Below are positions 3,895-46,319 of a DNA stretch of 64,000 nt, in pieces (within the stretch, counting starts at the first letter, position 1; every line of letters starts with the position of its first letter). This DNA is from Escherichia coli (GTDB taxonomy: Bacteria > Pseudomonadota > Gammaproteobacteria > Enterobacterales > Enterobacteriaceae): assembly GCF_046105845.1 (NCBI RefSeq), contig NZ_CP151004.1; one strand, given 5' to 3'. Below the pieces are notes generated by a model that was not told where the DNA came from, ran no database searches, and worked only from the letters and a program-made list of their open reading frames with translations. The translations under genes were made by a program, and so were the position numbers.

Positions 3895-4273
3895 TGTTGA
3901 ACTCCGTGTCAAAAGAAAACGGTCAATCCCATAAACGGCAGATTGAAAACAATGATGTTATATTTTTTGCAAGGCTATTTATGGTGCGGATGTCGTGTTT
4001 TTAATTGTAGGTGAGGTGATTTTTCATTAAAAAATATGCGCTTATGATTATTTTGTAAGAACACATTCATAATATTCATAATGCTCGTGAATAGTCTTAT
4101 AAATAATTCAATCGGGATGTTTTTATCTGCGTTACATTAATTTTTCGCAATAGTTAATTATTCCGTTAATTATGGTAATGATGAGGCACAAAGAGAAAAC
4201 CCTGCCATTTTCCCCTACTTTCAATCCTGTGATAGGATGTCACTGATGATGTTAATCACACTGACCTTACAGA

Positions 4274-5065
4274 ATGGGCCTTATGAACGCATTTGATTCG
4301 CAAACCGAAGATTCTTCACCTGCAATTGGTCGCAACTTGCGTAGCCGCCCGCTGGCGCGTAAAAAACTCTCCGAAATGGTGGAAGAAGAGCTGGAACAGA
4401 TGATCCGCCGTCGTGAATTTGGCGAAGGTGAACAATTACCGTCTGAACGCGAACTGATGGCGTTCTTTAACGTCGGGCGTCCTTCGGTGCGCGAAGCGCT
4501 GGCAGCGTTAAAACGCAAAGGTCTGGTGCAGATAAACAACGGCGAACGCGCTCGCGTCTCACGTCCTTCTGCGGACACCATCATCGGCGAGCTTTCCGGC
4601 ATGGCGAAAGATTTCCTTTCTCATCCTGGCGGGATTGCCCATTTCGAACAATTACGTCTGTTCTTTGAATCCAGCCTGGTGCGCTATGCGGCTGAACACG
4701 CCACCGATGAACAAATCGATTTGCTGGCAAAAGCACTGGAAATCAACAGTCAGTCGCTGGATAACAACGCGGCATTCATTCGCTCAGACGTTGATTTCCA
4801 CCGCGTTCTGGCGGAGATCCCCGGTAACCCAATCTTCATGGCGATCCACGTTGCCCTGCTCGACTGGCTGATCGCCGCACGTCCAACCGTGGCTGATCAG
4901 GCTCTGCACGAGCATAACAACGTTAGCTATCAACAGCATATTGCGATCGTTGACGCGATCCGGCGTCATGATCCTGACGAAGCCGATCGTGCGTTGCAAT
5001 CGCATCTCAACAGCGTCTCTGCTACCTGGCACGCCTTCGGTCAGACCACCAACAAAAAGAAATAA
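4274..5065 (+). CDS. nanR: GntR-family repressor of sialic acid catabolism
   Basis: 263-aa ORF matching NanR; divergent from dcuD, upstream of nanA. Confidence 0.93.
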
Positions 5066-5128
5066 TGCCACTTTAGTGAAGCAGATCGCATTATAAGCTT
5101 TCTGTATGGGGTGTTGCTTAATTGATCT

Positions 5129-5151
5129 GGTATAACAGGTATAAAGGTATA
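5129..5151 (+). promoter_or_regulatory. NanR operator: three direct GGTATA repeats in nanA promoter
   Basis: ggtataacaggtataaaggtata read directly about 40 nt upstream of nanA start; matches the known Nan box architecture. Confidence 0.85.
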
Positions 5152-5186
5152 TCGTTTATCAGACAAGCATCACTTCAGAGGTATTT

Positions 5187-6080
5187 ATGGCAACGAATTT
5201 ACGTGGCGTAATGGCTGCACTCCTGACTCCTTTTGATCAACAACAAGCACTGGATAAAGCGAGTCTGCGTCGCCTGGTTCAGTTCAATATTCAGCAGGGC
5301 ATTGACGGTTTATACGTGGGTGGTTCGACCGGCGAAGCCTTTGTACAAAGCCTTTCCGAGCGTGAACAGGTACTGGAAATCGTCGCCGAAGAGGCGAAAG
5401 GTAAGATTAAACTCATCGCCCACGTCGGTTGTGTCAGCACCGCCGAAAGCCAACAACTTGCGGCATCGGCTAAACGTTATGGCTTCGATGCCGTCTCCGC
5501 CGTCACGCCGTTCTACTATCCTTTCAGCTTTGAAGAACACTGCGATCACTATCGGGCAATTATTGATTCGGCGGATGGTTTGCCGATGGTGGTGTACAAC
5601 ATTCCTGCCCTGAGCGGGGTAAAACTAACCCTGGATCAGATCAACACCCTGGTTACGCTGCCTGGTGTCGGCGCGCTGAAACAGACCTCTGGCGATCTCT
5701 ATCAGATGGAACAGATCCGTCGTGAACATCCTGATCTGGTGCTCTATAACGGTTACGACGAAATCTTCGCCTCTGGTCTTCTGGCGGGCGCTGATGGTGG
5801 TATCGGTAGTACCTACAACATCATGGGCTGGCGTTATCAGGGGATTGTGAAGGCGCTGAAAGAAGGCGATATCCAGACCGCGCAGAAGCTGCAAACCGAA
5901 TGTAATAAAGTCATTGATTTACTGATCAAAACGGGCGTATTCCGCGGCCTGAAAACGGTCCTGCATTATATGGATGTCGTTTCTGTGCCGCTGTGCCGCA
6001 AACCGTTTGGACCGGTAGATGAAAAATATCTGCCAGAACTGAAGGCGTTGGCCCAGCAGTTGATGCAAGAGCGCGGGTGA
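5187..6080 (+). CDS. nanA: N-acetylneuraminate lyase
   Basis: 297-aa ORF matching NanA ([16 protein letters not shown]...). Confidence 0.95.
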
Positions 6081-6188
6081 GTTGTTTCCCCTCGCTCGCC
6101 CCTACCGGGTGAGGGGAAATAAACGCATCTGTACCCTACAATTTTCATACCAAAGCGTGTGGGCATCGCCCACCGCGGGAGACTCACA

Positions 6189-7679
6189 ATGAGTACTACA
6201 ACCCAGAATATCCCGTGGTATCGCCATCTCAATCGTGCACAATGGCGGGCATTTTCCGCTGCCTGGTTGGGATATCTGCTTGACGGTTTTGATTTCGTTT
6301 TAATCGCCCTGGTACTCACCGAAGTACAAGGTGAATTCGGGCTGACGACGGTGCAGGCGGCAAGTCTGATCTCCGCAGCCTTTATCTCTCGCTGGTTCGG
6401 CGGCCTGATGCTCGGCGCTATGGGTGACCGCTACGGGCGTCGTCTGGCAATGGTCACCAGCATCGTTCTCTTCTCGGCCGGGACGCTGGCCTGCGGCTTT
6501 GCGCCAGGCTACATCACCATGTTTATCGCTCGTCTGGTCATCGGCATGGGGATGGCGGGTGAATACGGTTCCAGCGCCACCTATGTCATTGAAAGCTGGC
6601 CAAAACATCTGCGTAATAAAGCCAGTGGTTTTCTGATTTCCGGCTTCTCTGTGGGGGCCGTCGTTGCCGCTCAGGTCTATAGCCTGGTGGTTCCGGTCTG
6701 GGGCTGGCGTGCGCTGTTCTTTATCGGCATTTTGCCAATCATCTTTGCTCTCTGGCTGCGTAAAAACATCCCGGAAGCGGAAGACTGGAAAGAGAAACAT
6801 GCTGGTAAAGCACCAGTACGCACGATGGTAGATATTCTCTACCGTGGTGAACATCGCATTGCCAATATCGTAATGACACTGGCGGCGGCTACTGCGCTGT
6901 GGTTTTGCTTCGCCGGTAACCTGCAAAATGCCGCGATCGTCGCTGTTCTTGGGCTGTTATGCGCCGCAATCTTTATCAGCTTTATGGTGCAAAGTACGGG
7001 CAAACGCTGGCCAACGGGCGTAATGCTGATGGTGGTCGTGTTGTTTGCTTTCCTCTACTCATGGCCGATTCAGGCGCTGCTGCCAACGTATCTGAAAACC
7101 GATCTGGCTTATAACCCGCATACTGTCGCCAATGTGCTGTTCTTTAGTGGCTTTGGCGCGGCGGTGGGATGCTGCGTAGGTGGCTTCCTCGGTGACTGGC
7201 TGGGAACCCGCAAAGCGTACGTTTGTAGCCTGCTGGCCTCGCAGCTGCTGATTATTCCGGTATTTGCGATTGGCGGCGCAAACGTCTGGGTGCTCGGTCT
7301 GTTACTGTTCTTCCAGCAAATGCTTGGACAAGGGATCGCCGGGATCTTACCGAAACTGATTGGCGGTTATTTCGATACCGACCAGCGTGCAGCGGGCCTG
7401 GGCTTTACCTACAACGTCGGCGCATTGGGCGGTGCACTGGCCCCAATCATCGGCGCGTTGATCGCTCAACGTCTGGATCTGGGTACTGCGCTGGCATCGC
7501 TCTCGTTCAGTCTGACATTTGTGGTGATCCTGCTGATTGGTCTGGATATGCCTTCCCGCGTTCAGCGTTGGTTGCGCCCGGAAGCATTGCGTACTCATGA
7601 CGCTATCGACGGCAAACCATTTAGCGGTGCCGTGCCATTTGGCCGCGCCAAAAACGATTTAGTCAAAACCAAAAGTTAA
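6189..7679 (+). CDS. nanT: Sialic acid MFS transporter
   Basis: Track ORF 506 aa; conserved start [15 protein letters not shown] gives 496 aa; polytopic MFS protein. Confidence 0.93.
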
Positions 7680-7726
7680 TCCTGTTGCCCGGTCTCTGTA
7701 CCGGGCCTTTCGCTAAGGGAAGATGT

Positions 7727-8412
7727 ATGTCGTTACTTGCACAACTGGATCAAAAAATCGCTGCTAACGGTGGCCTGATTGTCTCCTGCCAGCCGGTTCC
7801 GGACAGCCCGCTCGATAAACCCGAAATCGTCGCCGCCATGGCATTAGCGGCAGAACAGGCGGGCGCGGTTGCCATTCGCATTGAAGGTGTGGCAAATCTG
7901 CAAGCCGCGCGTGCGGTGGTGAGCGTGCCAATTATCGGGATTGTGAAACGCGATCTGGAGGATTCTCCGGTACGCATCACGGCCTATATTGAAGATGTTG
8001 ATGCGCTGGCGCAGGCGGGCGCGGACATTATCGCCATTGACGGCACCGACCGCCCGCGTCCGGTGCCTGTTGAAACGTTGCTGGCACGTATTCACCATCA
8101 CGGTTTACTGGCGATGACCGACTGTTCCACGCCGGAAGACGGCCTGGCATGCCAAAAGCTGGGAGCCGAAATTATTGGCACTACGCTTTCTGGCTATACC
8201 ACGCCTGAAACGCCAGAAGAGCCGGATCTGGCGCTGGTGAAAACGTTGAGCGACGCCGGATGTCGAGTGATTGCCGAAGGGCGTTACAACACGCCTGCTC
8301 AGGCGGCGGATGCGATGCGCCACGGCGCGTGGGCGGTGACGGTCGGTTCTGCCATTACGCGTCTTGAACACATTTGTCAGTGGTACAACACAGCGATGAA
8401 AAAGGCGGTGCT

Positions 8413-8416
<4 letters not shown>
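7727..8416 (+). CDS. nanE: N-acetylmannosamine-6-phosphate 2-epimerase
   Basis: Track ORF 243 aa; start at [16 protein letters not shown] gives 229 aa. Confidence 0.92.
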
Positions 8417-9749
<1,333 letters not shown>

Positions 9750-9824
9750 ATTTATTAGATCAGGTGTGACCTGACCCATCTTTGGCACAGAGCCAAACCT
9801 GAACTGACGGACCGCTCTGTGCCA

Positions 9825-10130
9825 TTACCTGACGTTGTATTCTTTTATGTTAACACCCTTGATACTGTATATACCTGTCCGCTTAATTCGCTTGCCCTTT
9901 TTATTCGTAATAGTTGCTGTAAGTGTACTGCAGCGAATGGAATGACGTTCATCAATCACCAGCCGAATTGCTTCTGAAGCATCTTCCACCTCTAGAAGGT
10001 CGTGAGTCTTATTTAAGCCGAATGGAACAAGGTGGAAGGCCGTTTTTCCAGATGATTTTCTGGTTATTTTTACTGGATACAACACATCACCACTTTTATG
10101 GATTAATTCAAGCTGTTCAATGTAAATCAT
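9825..10130 (-). CDS. Hypothetical protein, 101 aa, in AT-rich segment
   Basis: ORF with AGGAA Shine-Dalgarno 8 nt upstream of ATG; about 40% GC by eye; no recognised family. Confidence 0.4.
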   Translation of the reverse strand: MIYIEQLELIHKSGDVLYPVKITRKSSGKTAFHLVPFGLNKTHDLLEVEDASEAIRLVIDERHSIRCSTLTATITNKKGKRIKRTGIYSIKGVNIKEYNVR

Positions 10131-10217
10131 GGCAACTTTCCTTCGTTTATCTGCATGAATATATAAACCGAAAATAGGAGATGCAATACAAAAGCTGTGG
10201 AAATATCAAATAGCCTC

Positions 10218-10574
10218 TCAATTTGGCAGACAGCGTCTGCCAAATCTTTGCCGATGGGAATTCTGCAGAATTTCAACATGTTGATAAAAAAGGTAAAAAA
10301 GCTTCATTTGGCGTAAGTTTTTTGCAGAGACCCCACGTTTATACCGTCGACTTAAATCCTGCGATAACCGATCAATCAGCTGTGCAGCATAAGCCGCTCT
10401 TGCCTCGCCGCCTTGTTCAAATTCGACAATTCGTCGGCCAATTTCCCAGTATGTGGCGGTCATTAACGCGTTAACACTACGTACCGTTTCCGTCCGGGCG
10501 CTATCGACCAGGTGAATAATACCGTCGTGGATTTGCTGGTAGCCTGTTGAGGTTCTCTCTGAGAGCGATTCCAT
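10218..10574 (-). pseudogene. N-terminal fragment of DUF1016/YhcG-like (PDDEXK nuclease family) protein, truncated
   Basis: 118-aa ORF with TYWEIGRRIVEFEQ...NLRQMKLFYLFY resembling the N-terminal domain of DUF1016 proteins; full-length members about 340-375 aa; C-terminal nuclease domain absent. Confidence 0.5.
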
Positions 10575-42559: not shown

Positions 42560-43819
<1,260 letters not shown>

Positions 43820-43866
43820 TCGTCTGAGAGCTGGCAGCCCCGTTCGCGGGGCTACCGCCAGACCAC

Positions 43867-44145
43867 TCATTTTTTCGGTTTAGTGTAGCTACGCATCAAC
43901 TGCGTTCTGTCGATAAACTCATGGGTCTGCGGATCATGGTAGCGTGATGGCCATATAACCCAGGGGTCAGTTCCCAGGGCTTTCGCAATAATCATCTCTC
44001 CTTTCGGCCAGGGGCGCGATAATGCGTTCGCCAGCGTTGAGGAACTCAAACCATTTCTGCGAGATTCCGCCGCCATTGACGTTCCCTTCTTGCGCAAACC
44101 CGCAATGATGTCAGCGGGATGCCAGTCAATGAAATTACTTTCCAT
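43867..44145 (-). CDS. sfsB: Ner-like DNA-binding regulator SfsB/Nlp
   Basis: 92-aa ORF matching SfsB (MESNFIDWHPADIIAGLRKKG). Confidence 0.9.
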   Translation of the reverse strand: MESNFIDWHPADIIAGLRKKGTSMAAESRRNGLSSSTLANALSRPWPKGEMIIAKALGTDPWVIWPSRYHDPQTHEFIDRTQLMRSYTKPKK

Positions 44146-46193: not shown

Positions 46194-46217
46194 GTTTTTC
46201 GCGTCCCGGTAACGGAT

Positions 46218-46248
46218 GAAAGCCCCGCAACACGTTGCGGGGCTTTTT
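46218..46248 (+). terminator. Intrinsic terminator after rplU-rpmA
   Basis: agccccgcaac/gttgcggggct stem followed by T-run. Confidence 0.85.
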
Positions 46249-46319
46249 ACATTCGATAACCGGTAAAAATGCGCATGGTGCGACGTTAATTCGCAAATGC
46301 GCTTTGCAGGGAATACGGT

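What the first reader, a model, noticed from the sequence alone, without database searches (positions are those of the whole stretch)
6085..6119. Hairpin in the nanA-nanT intergenic region
Inverted repeat tttcccctc...gaggggaaa directly after the nanA stop with no T-run; it could stabilise the nanA mRNA or set differential expression within the operon.
Basis: seen in the sequence. Interest (0 to 1): 0.15.

Follow-up and report, generated by a model that had tools for sequence, protein, structure and literature searches.

The report
Conserved RNA hairpin after nanA
The inverted repeat after the E. coli nanA stop codon is a real, very stable and conserved mRNA stem-loop, probably the remnant of a repeat element that now shields nanA mRNA from decay; this is an ordinary kind of operon feature, and the more informative signals (a Spot 42 small-RNA site and a second hairpin) lie just downstream of it.

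Summary
TTTCCCCTC/GAGGGGAAA (6085-6093/6111-6119) is the middle of a longer helix. It has a 15-bp core (6084-6098/6106-6120) with a 7-nt loop, a 3-bp foot, and a 7-bp lower stem (6073-6079/6126-6132) that includes the nanA UGA. Stability is -31.6 to -35.5 kcal/mol (z = -5.4), the 4th most stable 60-nt window in the 64 kb.

The fold is much better on the sense RNA (-35.5) than on the antisense (-19.1). It is kept in all eight Escherichia lineages, and every core-stem substitution preserves pairing. It is neither a terminator (no U-run) nor a REP. It looks like the outer arms of a BoxC-like repeat that is still intact at this position in Pseudocitrobacter and Kluyvera.

Three bases downstream lie 12 nt (6128-6139) perfectly complementary to the 5' end of Spot 42, and nanT is a published Spot 42 target. 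A second, covarying hairpin (6155-6176) precedes the nanT ribosome-binding site. A published 3' end with low read-through maps at 6181, after that second hairpin and not after the first.

Best reading: a passive 3'-to-5' decay barrier and structural module within a discoordinate-expression region. The function is inferred, not shown. Ordinary; low interest.

The parts
5187..6080 (+). nanA (N-acetylneuraminate lyase) coding sequence; stop codon TGA at 6078-6080
   Evidence: ORF list. RefSeq annotation of matching E. coli genomes and of K-12.
6073..6079 (+). 5' side of the lower stem of hairpin 1 (last nanA codons and the UG of UGA), pairing with 6126-6132
   Evidence: Folds. Pair probabilities 0.94-0.99. 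These pairs are invariant in 7 Escherichia sequences.
6081..6124 (+). Hairpin 1 proper: foot 6081-6083/6122-6124, core stem 6084-6098/6106-6120 (with G.U pairs at 6094.6110 and 6096.6108), loop CCCCUAC 6099-6105.
   Evidence: Energy is -26.8 kcal/mol on the sense strand and -17.6 on the antisense strand.
6126..6132 (+). 3' side of the lower stem; overlaps the first 5 nt of the Spot 42 complementary site
   Evidence: Opening the Spot 42 site costs 5.2-5.6 kcal/mol in the full context and about 1 kcal/mol when the nanA 3' end is removed.
6128..6139 (+). TCTGTACCCTAC: perfect complement of nucleotides 1-12 of the small RNA Spot 42 (spf); probable pairing site for the published Spot 42 repression of nanT
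   Evidence: The spf sequence was read from K-12. The 12-mer, and even its 8-mer core, is unique in the 64 kb. It gives the best region-I duplex of 4,264 windows on both strands: -23.7 kcal/mol against a mean of -11.6, sd 2.8. It is invariant in Escherichia. nanT is listed as a Spot 42 target in PMC12612679 and PMC3295665.
6140..6154 (+). A/U-rich spacer predicted to be mostly single-stranded (AAUUUUCAUACCAAA)
   Evidence: Unpaired probabilities are mostly 0.7-0.96. The motif TTCATACCAAAGCG is shared with Kluyvera and Pseudocitrobacter.
6155..6176 (+). Hairpin 2 (GCGUGUGGGCAUCGCCCACCGC), directly 5' of the nanT Shine-Dalgarno sequence
   Evidence: Fold of -14.2 kcal/mol. Covariation across 14 sequences from many genera: score 0.203 against 0.111 for shuffles, 0 of 500 shuffles as high, 7 double-change cells.
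6174..6184 (+). Published RNA 3' terminus (dominant position 6181; K-12 3372582, minus strand), assigned to nanA, with low read-through
   Evidence: PMC10687069 Supplementary Data 2: signal 0.937, adjusted p 1e-35, 2e-19 and 4e-30. Coordinates were converted through the K-12 annotation.
6177..6182 (+). nanT Shine-Dalgarno sequence GGGAGA
   Evidence: Read from the sequence. The region 6177-6188 is invariant in Escherichia, and GGGAG is conserved in nearly all 80 loci.
6189..7679 (+). nanT (sialic acid transporter) coding sequence
   Evidence: Translation. RefSeq annotation.

Best explanation
Hairpin 1 is a stem-loop of the nan mRNA, on the sense strand. It is not a DNA site and not a terminator.

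Origin: it is the collapsed remnant of a BoxC-like palindromic repeat. It kept only the outer arms (CCCCTCRCYC / GGGTGAGGGG). Pseudocitrobacter and Kluyvera still carry full elements at this position, and Citrobacter, Salmonella and Enterobacter carry REP/BIME elements there.

Function: in Escherichia it has been retained as one module of a conserved 108-nt intercistronic control region. In order, that region contains hairpin 1, a 12-nt Spot 42 pairing site, an A/U-rich spacer, hairpin 2, and the nanT ribosome-binding site.

Proposed mechanism: when expression downstream of nanA is shut off, 3'-to-5' exonucleases trim back from the new 3' end. The shut-off would come from Spot 42/Hfq pairing followed by RNase E cleavage or Rho termination before nanT. 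The exonucleases are stopped first at hairpin 2, where the published 3' end lies, and at the much stronger hairpin 1 if they pass it. The nanA cistron therefore outlives nanT, giving more aldolase than transporter.

Because the helix begins inside the stop codon, it refolds only after the last ribosome leaves nanA. Its lower stem partly masks the Spot 42 site until then.

Shown: existence, stability, strand specificity, conservation, pairing-preserving substitutions, Spot 42 complementarity, and a published 3' end with low read-through at the junction.

Inferred: the barrier function, the link to Spot 42, and the evolutionary origin.
For: Stability and rarity:
- -31.6 to -35.5 kcal/mol, z = -5.35, 4th of 25,578 windows.

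Strand specificity:
- -35.5 kcal/mol on the sense strand against -19.1 on the antisense, because the G.U pairs become C-A mismatches on the other strand.

Constraint across 8 Escherichia lineages:
- The spacer is variable at 15 of 109 columns, against 46% of third codon positions (p = 1e-11).
- Hairpin 1 is variable at 7 of 42 columns (p = 1e-4).
- The loop plus 3' arm is variable at 1 of 24 columns (p = 1e-5).

Pairing:
- 97.7% of cells are paired. Five pairs vary on one side only and all stay paired. One pair (6084/6120) changes G.U to C-G in E. albertii.

E. coli population:
- 4,414 of 5,408 genomes are identical over 6069-6140. The sampled variants (an extra T in the T-run; G6084T) fold at -37.1 and -35.7, against -36.3 for the window sequence.
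- The 149-nt junction is at least 99% identical in 5,391 of 5,408 genomes, whereas the 2.5-kb nanA-nanT segment reaches that level in only 385.

Other genera:
- 76 of 82 sequences have a structure of -12 kcal/mol or better within 70 nt of the nanA stop, built from non-homologous elements.

Origin:
- The E. coli arms and flanks align with the outer ends of the Pseudocitrobacter composite element. That family occurs at a median of at least 14 places per E. coli genome.

Context:
- The Spot 42 complement at 6128-6139, with nanT a published Spot 42 target.
- The 3' terminus at 6181 with signal 0.94.
- The general class is established: in 26 of 34 5'-stabilised operon segments the 3' end lies just after a stable hairpin (PMC5927463).
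Against: - No 3' end is reported at the foot of hairpin 1 (about 6125-6135; K-12 33726xx) in the data that could be searched. The only junction terminus follows hairpin 2.
- The nan operon was analysed by Dar & Sorek but not called as differentially decaying. Those cultures were not induced with sialic acid.
- The covariation test for hairpin 1 is not significant (308 of 500 shuffles as high), because there are few sequences and little divergence.
- Trabulsiella has a 32-33-nt spacer with no hairpin, and some Buttiauxella have only weak structure. A hairpin here is therefore not required for a working nan operon.
- The whole spacer is conserved, so part of the hairpin's conservation may be shared with neighbouring elements.
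- RIL-seq tables that could be searched show no Spot 42 chimera with this spacer.
Confidence: 0.45

Rival explanations
1. Neutral relic. The hairpin is leftover sequence from a palindromic repeat that inserted into a permissive intercistronic gap, and it has no function of its own. Its conservation reflects hitch-hiking with neighbouring functional elements (the Spot 42 site, hairpin 2, the ribosome-binding site) and the short divergence times within Escherichia.
For: - It is homologous to the outer arms of a dispersed repeat family.
- The same position is occupied by unrelated repeats in other genera and is empty in Trabulsiella.
- No 3' end is mapped at it.
- The covariation test is not significant.
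- The 5' arm varies about as much as third codon positions: 6 of 18 columns against 46% (p = 0.34).
Against: - The loop and 3' arm are almost invariant (1 of 24 columns, p = 1e-5 against third positions).
- Every core-stem change and both common strain variants keep pairing and stability.
- The G.U pairs make the fold specific to the sense strand, which a decaying DNA palindrome would not favour.
Confidence: 0.25
2. Modulator of translation termination. Like REP elements within 15 nt of a stop codon (Liang, Rudd & Deutscher 2015; recalled from memory), a stable helix starting at the stop codon would slow the terminating ribosome. That would trigger mRNA cleavage and tmRNA tagging, and so lower NanA output.
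For: - The helix starts inside the UGA codon and the core stem starts 4 nt after it.
- In 75 of 82 sequences a structure of -12 kcal/mol or better starts within 15 nt of the nanA stop.
Against: - There are no data on NanA tagging.
- The effect was described for REP elements, and this is not a REP.
- Lowering the output of the first and most needed catabolic enzyme has no obvious rationale.
Confidence: 0.1
3. Docking module for Spot 42/Hfq. The apical loop CCCCUAC presents a second copy of CCCUAC, the complement of Spot 42 nt 1-6. The hairpin would then help to capture the small RNA, or would gate the adjacent 12-nt site through its lower stem.
For: - The loop holds CCCUAC, and the loop is invariant in Escherichia apart from one extra C in E. 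albertii.
- The chance of that hexamer falling in a 7-nt loop is about 5e-4 (own calculation).
- The lower stem overlaps 5 nt of the 12-nt site and raises its opening cost from about 1 to about 5.5 kcal/mol.
Against: - Only 6 bp are possible with the loop.
- Hairpins at this position in other genera that have a CCUAC site do not carry the motif in their loops (for example Leclercia).
- No interaction data are available.
- The hexamer may simply be inherited from CTAC-tailed repeat elements.
Confidence: 0.1
4. Transcription attenuator or terminator between nanA and nanT, intrinsic or Rho-assisted, acting at the hairpin itself.
For: - It is a GC-rich stable stem directly after a gene.
- A strong drop in read-through exists somewhere in the junction.
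Against: - The tail is AUAAACGCAUCUGU, with no U-tract, and the scan does not call it.
- The mapped 3' end lies about 60 nt downstream, after another hairpin.
- nanT must be co-transcribed for the operon to work.
Confidence: 0.04
5. DNA-level element (a protein-binding palindrome or cruciform), or a coding or recoding signal such as a SECIS-like read-through of UGA.
For: - It is an inverted repeat in DNA.
- UGA is followed by a hairpin and by an in-frame 13-codon extension, VVSPRSPLPGEGK.
Against: - The G.U pairs make the antisense and DNA form much weaker, -19.1 against -35.5 kcal/mol.
- Single-nucleotide indels among lineages and in 18% of E. coli strains break the reading frame.
- No Rfam family matches.
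Confidence: 0.02

Closest known systems
REP/BIME stabiliser in the malE-malF intercistronic region, and the wider class of operon-internal 3' protective hairpins (Newbury et al. 1987, recalled from memory; Dar & Sorek 2018, PMC5927463)
   Same: A stable GC-rich stem-loop lies in an intercistronic gap just after the first gene, which is the one needed in higher amount. It has no U-tract. The expected action is to block 3'-to-5' exonucleases. Other enterobacteria carry true REP/BIME elements at exactly this nanA-nanT position.
   Different: It carries none of the REP signature motifs and is single-copy in the window. No 3' end has been mapped at its foot. The nan operon was not called as differentially decaying in uninduced cultures.
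RyhB-induced differential degradation of iscRSUA, in which a REP-like structure in the iscR-iscS spacer protects iscR (Desnoyers et al. 2009, recalled from memory)
   Same: The architecture matches: upstream cistron, strong hairpin, small-RNA pairing site, downstream cistron. The expected outcome also matches: the downstream part is lost and the upstream part is kept.
   Different: Here the small-RNA site lies 50-61 nt upstream of the nanT start codon rather than on the ribosome-binding site. Nothing has been tested experimentally for nan.
Spot 42 discoordinate regulation of the gal operon at galK (Moller et al. 2002, recalled from memory; PMC10020718, abstract seen)
   Same: The same small RNA pairs inside a polycistronic sugar-catabolism mRNA, lowering a downstream gene relative to the upstream ones under catabolite repression.
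   Different: In gal the site is at the galK translation start. For nan the complementarity is to the extreme 5' end of Spot 42 and lies next to a strong hairpin.
BoxC-type dispersed intergenic repeats of E. coli (56 bp, about 32 copies; PMC2267715). The name is assigned from memory and was not verified against a consensus.
   Same: It shares the GGGTGAGGGG / CCCCTCACCC arm. It is positionally homologous to full elements in Pseudocitrobacter and Kluyvera. The family is present at a median of at least 14 places per E. coli genome.
   Different: It lacks the family's core hairpin CCCTCTCCC...GGGAGAGGG. At most it is a collapsed derivative.
REP elements within 15 nt of a stop codon that down-regulate the upstream gene through ribosome stalling and trans-translation (Liang, Rudd & Deutscher 2015, recalled from memory)
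   Same: A stable helix begins at or within a few nucleotides of the stop codon.
   Different: It is not a REP, and no tagging or stalling data exist for NanA.

Membership tests
Intrinsic (Rho-independent) terminator | GC-rich stem-loop | tested here: met
   Stem of 15-18 bp; -26.8 to -35.5 kcal/mol.
Intrinsic (Rho-independent) terminator | U-tract immediately 3' of the stem | tested here: not met
   The tail is AUAAACGCAUCUGU. The terminator scan does not list it.
Intrinsic (Rho-independent) terminator | RNA 3' ends at the foot of the stem in vivo | tested here: not met
   No terminus at K-12 33726xx appears in the searchable tables of PMC7815308 and PMC10687069. The only junction terminus is at 3372582, which is window 6181. 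The cultures were not induced, and one of the stored files is truncated.
REP/BIME (PU) elements | Signature sequence (GCCGGATG...CATCCGGC, GGCCTAC tail) | tested here: not met
   No CCGGA, TCCGG or GGCCTAC motifs occur in the 108-nt spacer. The malE-malF positive control has them.
REP/BIME (PU) elements | Many copies per genome | tested here: not met
   The 35-mer is unique in the window with up to 3 mismatches. The junction query finds a median of one place per genome.
BoxC-like dispersed repeat | Core hairpin CCCTCTCCC-loop-GGGAGAGGG | tested here: not met
   The pattern is absent from the window. It is present in L007, L010, L047 and the E. coli wcaJ-cpsG spacer.
BoxC-like dispersed repeat | Flanking arm GGGTGAGGG(G) and its complement, at a position homologous to full elements | tested here: met
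   GGGTGAGGGG lies at 6107-6116. Alignment A3 places the E. coli arms and the flank AAACGCATC on the outer ends of the Pseudocitrobacter composite element.
Operon-internal 3' protective hairpin (malEF type) | Stable hairpin in the spacer 3' of the stabilised gene | tested here: met
Operon-internal 3' protective hairpin (malEF type) | Stable 3' end immediately downstream of that hairpin | tested here: not met
   The 3' end lies at 6181, after hairpin 2, and not at 6125-6135.
Operon-internal 3' protective hairpin (malEF type) | Upstream gene decays more slowly than the downstream gene | tested here: inconclusive
   The nan operon is in Dar & Sorek's S2 table (analysed) but not in S3 (differential decay). 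In contrast, the TRS read-through signal of 0.94 indicates a strong coverage drop at the junction. Neither data set used sialic-acid induction.
Spot 42 target site (adjacent element 6128-6139) | Complementarity to a single-stranded region of Spot 42 | tested here: met
   12 of 12 nt pair with spf nt 1-12. The site is unique in 64 kb and gives the best duplex of 4,264 windows.
Spot 42 target site (adjacent element 6128-6139) | Target gene responds to Spot 42 in an Hfq-dependent way, through this site | not testable with these tools
   Reviews citing Beisel & Storz 2011 and Beisel et al. 2012 list nanT as a Spot 42 target. The primary papers are not held, so the mapped site could not be compared.
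Any Rfam family | Match to a covariance model | tested here: not met
   No hit in 6000-6200 even at E-values up to 10.
SECIS or stop-codon read-through element | Conserved in-frame coding continuation after UGA | tested here: not met
   Single-nucleotide indels in E. albertii, in L004 and in 18% of E. coli strains break the frame.

The most novel reading that the evidence does not exclude
Hairpin 1 is an active part of a bipartite Spot 42-responsive intercistronic switch. Its loop (CCCUAC) and the adjacent 12-nt site both match the 5' end of Spot 42. Its lower stem, which is melted by the ribosome terminating on nanA, gates access to the site. After Spot 42-triggered cleavage or termination, the same hairpin caps the surviving nanA message. 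Translation of nanA, catabolite repression and mRNA decay would then be coupled through a single repeat-derived structure.
Probability: 0.12. Interest if true: 0.45.

Novelty: new member of a known kind. Interest (0 to 1): 0.2.

Why it matters
If the hairpin does protect nanA mRNA, it would be one more example of a repeat-derived stem-loop setting unequal expression inside an operon. Here that would mean more sialic-acid aldolase than transporter.

The neighbourhood is more useful than the hairpin itself. The 108-nt nanA-nanT spacer holds a perfect Spot 42 seed match and a covarying hairpin at a mapped 3' end. Together these give a concrete, testable model of how catabolite repression could uncouple nanT from nanA in a gut-colonisation pathway.

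None of this would surprise a specialist.

Tried and rejected
- **Rfam scan.** An E-value scan of 4000-10500 found nothing at the junction.
- **Terminator.** Rejected: no U-tract.
- **REP element.** Rejected by motif comparison with the malE-malF control.
- **RefSeq annotation as evidence against a REP.** I first meant to use the lack of a repeat annotation in the K-12 record. The malE-malF check showed that this copy carries no REP features at all, so that argument was dropped.
- **SECIS or read-through.** Rejected because of frame-breaking indels.
- **Whole-length Spot 42 duplex prediction.** Uninformative, because it ignores intramolecular structure. It was replaced by a region-I scan.
- **Literature leads that went nowhere.**
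  - PMC10107115 and PMC11745405 matched only on author names or a different Salmonella locus.
  - Martinez 1995, Ohta 1985, Kalivoda 2003, Beisel 2011 and 2012, and Baekkedal 2015 are not held. I therefore could not check whether the hairpin or the Spot 42 site was described there.
  - Several papers have no stored supplementary files.
  - EPEC RIL-seq tables show ArcZ chimeras with the nanE-nanT spacer, but none for the nanA-nanT spacer.
- **First hairpin survey script.** It timed out and was replaced by a faster one.
- **Internal nanT promoter.** A promoter using TACAAT (6137-6142) was considered. The -35 region is poor, the scan does not list it, and the conserved motif in other genera is CCTACAA, which lacks the final T.

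Full report
**What is there**

The window carries the Escherichia coli nan operon on the + strand: nanR, nanA (5187-6080, stop TGA at 6078-6080), nanT (ATG at 6189, ending at 7679), nanE, nanK and yhcH. This rests on the ORF list and the RefSeq annotation of matching genomes. The 108-nt nanA-nanT spacer (6081-6188) is identical to that of K-12 MG1655.

The supposed 17-nt loop pairs further, leaving a 7-nt loop. The full structure has four parts:
- a core stem, 6084-6098/6106-6120, with G.U pairs at 6094.6110 and 6096.6108;
- the loop CCCCUAC, 6099-6105;
- a 3-bp foot, 6081-6083/6122-6124;
- a 7-bp lower stem, 6073-6079/6126-6132, which includes the U and G of the stop codon.

The energies are -31.6 kcal/mol for 6075-6130 (z = -5.35, 0 of 200 shuffles as good) and -35.5 kcal/mol for 6073-6132. 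Pair probabilities are 0.95-1.0 in a 261-nt context. It is the 4th most stable of 25,578 sliding 60-nt windows on both strands of the 64 kb. No T-run follows, and the terminator scan does not call it. No Rfam family matches.

**It is an RNA structure of the sense transcript**

The same segment folds at -35.5 kcal/mol on the sense strand but only -19.1 on the antisense strand. The two G.U pairs become C-A mismatches on the other strand. That argues against a DNA palindrome or an antisense RNA.

**Conservation**

Among 5,426 complete E. coli genomes, the 149-nt junction is at least 99% identical to the window in 5,391 of 5,408. The surrounding 2.5 kb of nanA plus nanT reaches that level in only 385. 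Over 6069-6140, 4,414 genomes are identical and 994 differ at one position. The sampled variants are an extra T in the T-run 6085-6087 and G6084T. Both lie at the base of the core stem, and both fold as well as the reference (-37.1 and -35.7 against -36.3 kcal/mol).

Across eight Escherichia lineages (E. coli, E. albertii, E. whittamii and cryptic clades), the proportion of variable columns is:

| Region | Variable columns | p against third codon positions |
|---|---|---|
| nanA and nanT third codon positions | 46% | reference |
| Whole spacer | 15 of 109 | 1e-11 |
| Hairpin 1 | 7 of 42 | 1e-4 |
| Hairpin 1, 5' arm | 6 of 18 | 0.34 |
| Hairpin 1, loop plus 3' arm | 1 of 24 | 1e-5 |

The asymmetry between the arms is what a structural constraint predicts for a C-rich 5' arm facing a G-rich 3' arm. 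C-to-U changes give G.U pairs and are tolerated. G-to-A changes give A-C mismatches and are not.

On the alignment, 97.7% of cells are paired. Five pairs vary on one side only and all stay paired. One peripheral pair changes G.U to C-G. The shuffle control is not significant (308 of 500), because there is little variation to work with. The structural constraint is therefore supported but not proven by covariation.

**Origin and comparison with other genera**

A scan of species-representative genomes returned 80 nanA loci from Enterobacteriaceae. The position right after nanA nearly always holds a structured element, but the elements are not homologous:
- Citrobacter, Salmonella, Enterobacter and Lelliottia carry classical REP/BIME sequences.
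- Pseudocitrobacter, Kluyvera and one Enterobacter carry CCCTCTCCC...GGGAGAGGG-TTAGGGTGAGGGG repeats, with four tandem copies in P. vendiensis.
- Atlantibacter, Leclercia and others carry short private hairpins.
- Trabulsiella has a 32-33-nt spacer with no hairpin.

In 76 of 82 sequences the first 70 nt or fewer fold at -12 kcal/mol or better.

The Pseudocitrobacter repeat belongs to a dispersed family that also occurs at a median of at least 14 places per E. coli genome, for example in the wcaJ-cpsG spacer. From memory this is the BoxC family (56 bp, about 32 copies; PMC2267715), but I could not check a consensus.

Alignment A3 places the E. coli arms (CCCCTCGCTC and GGGTGAGGGG) and the flank AAACGCATC on the outer ends of the Pseudocitrobacter composite element. 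The hairpin lacks the family's core and lacks all REP motifs. I infer that it is a collapsed derivative of such a repeat, not a member of the family.

**What lies next to it**

Three bases after the foot of the hairpin, 6128-6139 (TCTGTACCCTAC) is a perfect complement of nucleotides 1-12 of Spot 42. I read the spf sequence from K-12. The 12-mer, and even its 8-mer core, is unique in the 64 kb. It gives the best Spot 42 region-I duplex of 4,264 windows on both strands, -23.7 kcal/mol against a mean of -11.6 with sd 2.8. It is invariant in Escherichia. It is partly conserved in Leclercia, Silvania, Franconibacter, Atlantibacter and Phytobacter, and absent from the genera that carry REP elements.

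Reviews citing Beisel & Storz 2011 and Beisel et al. 2012 list nanT as a Spot 42 target. The primary papers are not held, so I could not confirm that this is the site they mapped.

The lower stem of hairpin 1 overlaps five bases of this site. It raises the site's opening cost from about 1 to 5.2-5.6 kcal/mol. The hairpin loop also contains CCCUAC, the complement of Spot 42 nt 1-6.

Further downstream, a second hairpin (6155-6176, -14.2 kcal/mol) abuts the nanT Shine-Dalgarno sequence GGGAGA. It shows real covariation across genera: score 0.203 against 0.111 for shuffles, 0 of 500 as high, 7 double-change cells.

**Published transcript data**

TRS analysis of MG1655 RNAtag-seq lists a 3' terminus assigned to nanA at K-12 3372582 on the minus strand. 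Its signal is 0.937, where values near 0 mean full read-through, and the adjusted p-values are 1e-35, 2e-19 and 4e-30 (PMC10687069). Converted to window coordinates this is position 6181, 5 nt after hairpin 2 and inside the nanT Shine-Dalgarno sequence.

No terminus is listed at the foot of hairpin 1. Term-seq by Adams et al. lists only a 3' end 45 nt inside nanA. Dar & Sorek included the nan operon among 390 analysed operons but not among the 47 with differential decay. None of these cultures was induced with sialic acid.

**Mechanism**

The best-supported reading (confidence 0.45) is that hairpin 1 is a passive RNA module in a discoordinate-expression region. Downstream events generate a new 3' end. 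These could be Spot 42/Hfq pairing followed by RNase E cleavage in the A/U-rich spacer, or Rho termination before nanT, as described for Spot 42 at galK. Exonucleases then stop at hairpin 2, and hairpin 1 is a much stronger second barrier that keeps nanA intact. The existence, stability, strand specificity, conservation and context of the hairpin are shown. The barrier function and the link to Spot 42 are inferred.

The rivals are:
- a neutral repeat relic (0.25);
- a stop-codon-proximal modulator of NanA termination, as proposed for REP elements (0.10);
- a Spot 42/Hfq docking or gating element (0.10);
- an attenuator (0.04);
- a DNA-level or recoding element (0.02).

**Comparison with known systems, and verdict**

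The hairpin works like the malE-malF REP stabiliser, and like the iscR-iscS structure in RyhB-mediated differential decay. It is not a REP, not a BoxC member and not a terminator, because defining features were tested and not met.

It is a new, unannotated member of a well-known kind of feature. The adjacent Spot 42 complementarity and the covarying second hairpin are the more useful leads.

Noticed in passing
window 6128-6139: TCTGTACCCTAC is a perfect complement of nt 1-12 of the small RNA Spot 42. It is unique in the 64 kb and is the best region-I duplex in the window. nanT is a published Spot 42 target, but the primary papers could not be read to confirm the site.
   Followed up: yes
window 6155-6176 (and 6181): A second hairpin lies directly 5' of the nanT Shine-Dalgarno sequence. 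It shows compensatory changes across many genera (Raoultella, Leclercia, Phytobacter, Buttiauxella and others). A published 3' terminus with low read-through maps 5 nt after it.
   Followed up: yes
window 6099-6105: The loop of hairpin 1 (CCCCUAC) contains a second CCCUAC, the complement of Spot 42 nt 1-6. It is invariant in Escherichia. This could be a kissing site or a coincidence inherited from CTAC-tailed repeats.
   Followed up: partly
window 5232 (K-12 3373531, minus strand): Term-seq (Adams et al. 2021, PMC7815308) reports an RNA 3' end 45 nt inside the nanA ORF. It may reflect premature termination or processing.
   Followed up: no
window 7680-7726 (terminus at about 7711; K-12 3371052): The nanT-nanE spacer also has a published 3' terminus (TRS signal 0.61). 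In EPEC RIL-seq it forms chimeras with the small RNA ArcZ (PMC8550237).
   Followed up: no
L010:3892-4294; L007, L047, L008, L009 and L023 spacers; L087:301-404: Pseudocitrobacter vendiensis has four tandem BoxC-like composite repeats between nanA and nanT. Related single or double units occur in Kluyvera, P. faecalis and an Enterobacter. The family occurs at a median of at least 14 places per E. coli genome, for example in the wcaJ-cpsG spacer.
   Followed up: partly
L011-L045 and other loci (nanA-nanT spacers); L089 (malE-malF): REP/BIME elements occupy the same nanA-nanT position in Citrobacter, Salmonella, Enterobacter and Lelliottia. The REP tail GGCCTACAAAA resembles the Spot 42 site CCCTACAA, so the 5' GUAGG of Spot 42 could touch REP tails in general.
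   Followed up: no
L044 and L046 (Trabulsiella): The nanA-nanT spacer is only 32-33 nt and has no hairpin, so a structure at this position is dispensable for the operon.
   Followed up: partly
window 46206-46265, 43811-43870 (both strands), 18396-18455 (-), 8011-8070 (-), 12481-12540 (+): These are other exceptionally stable 60-nt windows in the 64 kb (-31 to -34 kcal/mol). They are probably REP elements or terminators.
   Followed up: no
NC_000913.3 record as held (L001, L088, L089): The K-12 feature table available here carries no REP or repeat features, even at malE-malF. Absence of annotation in a spacer is therefore not evidence that no repeat is present.
   Followed up: yes
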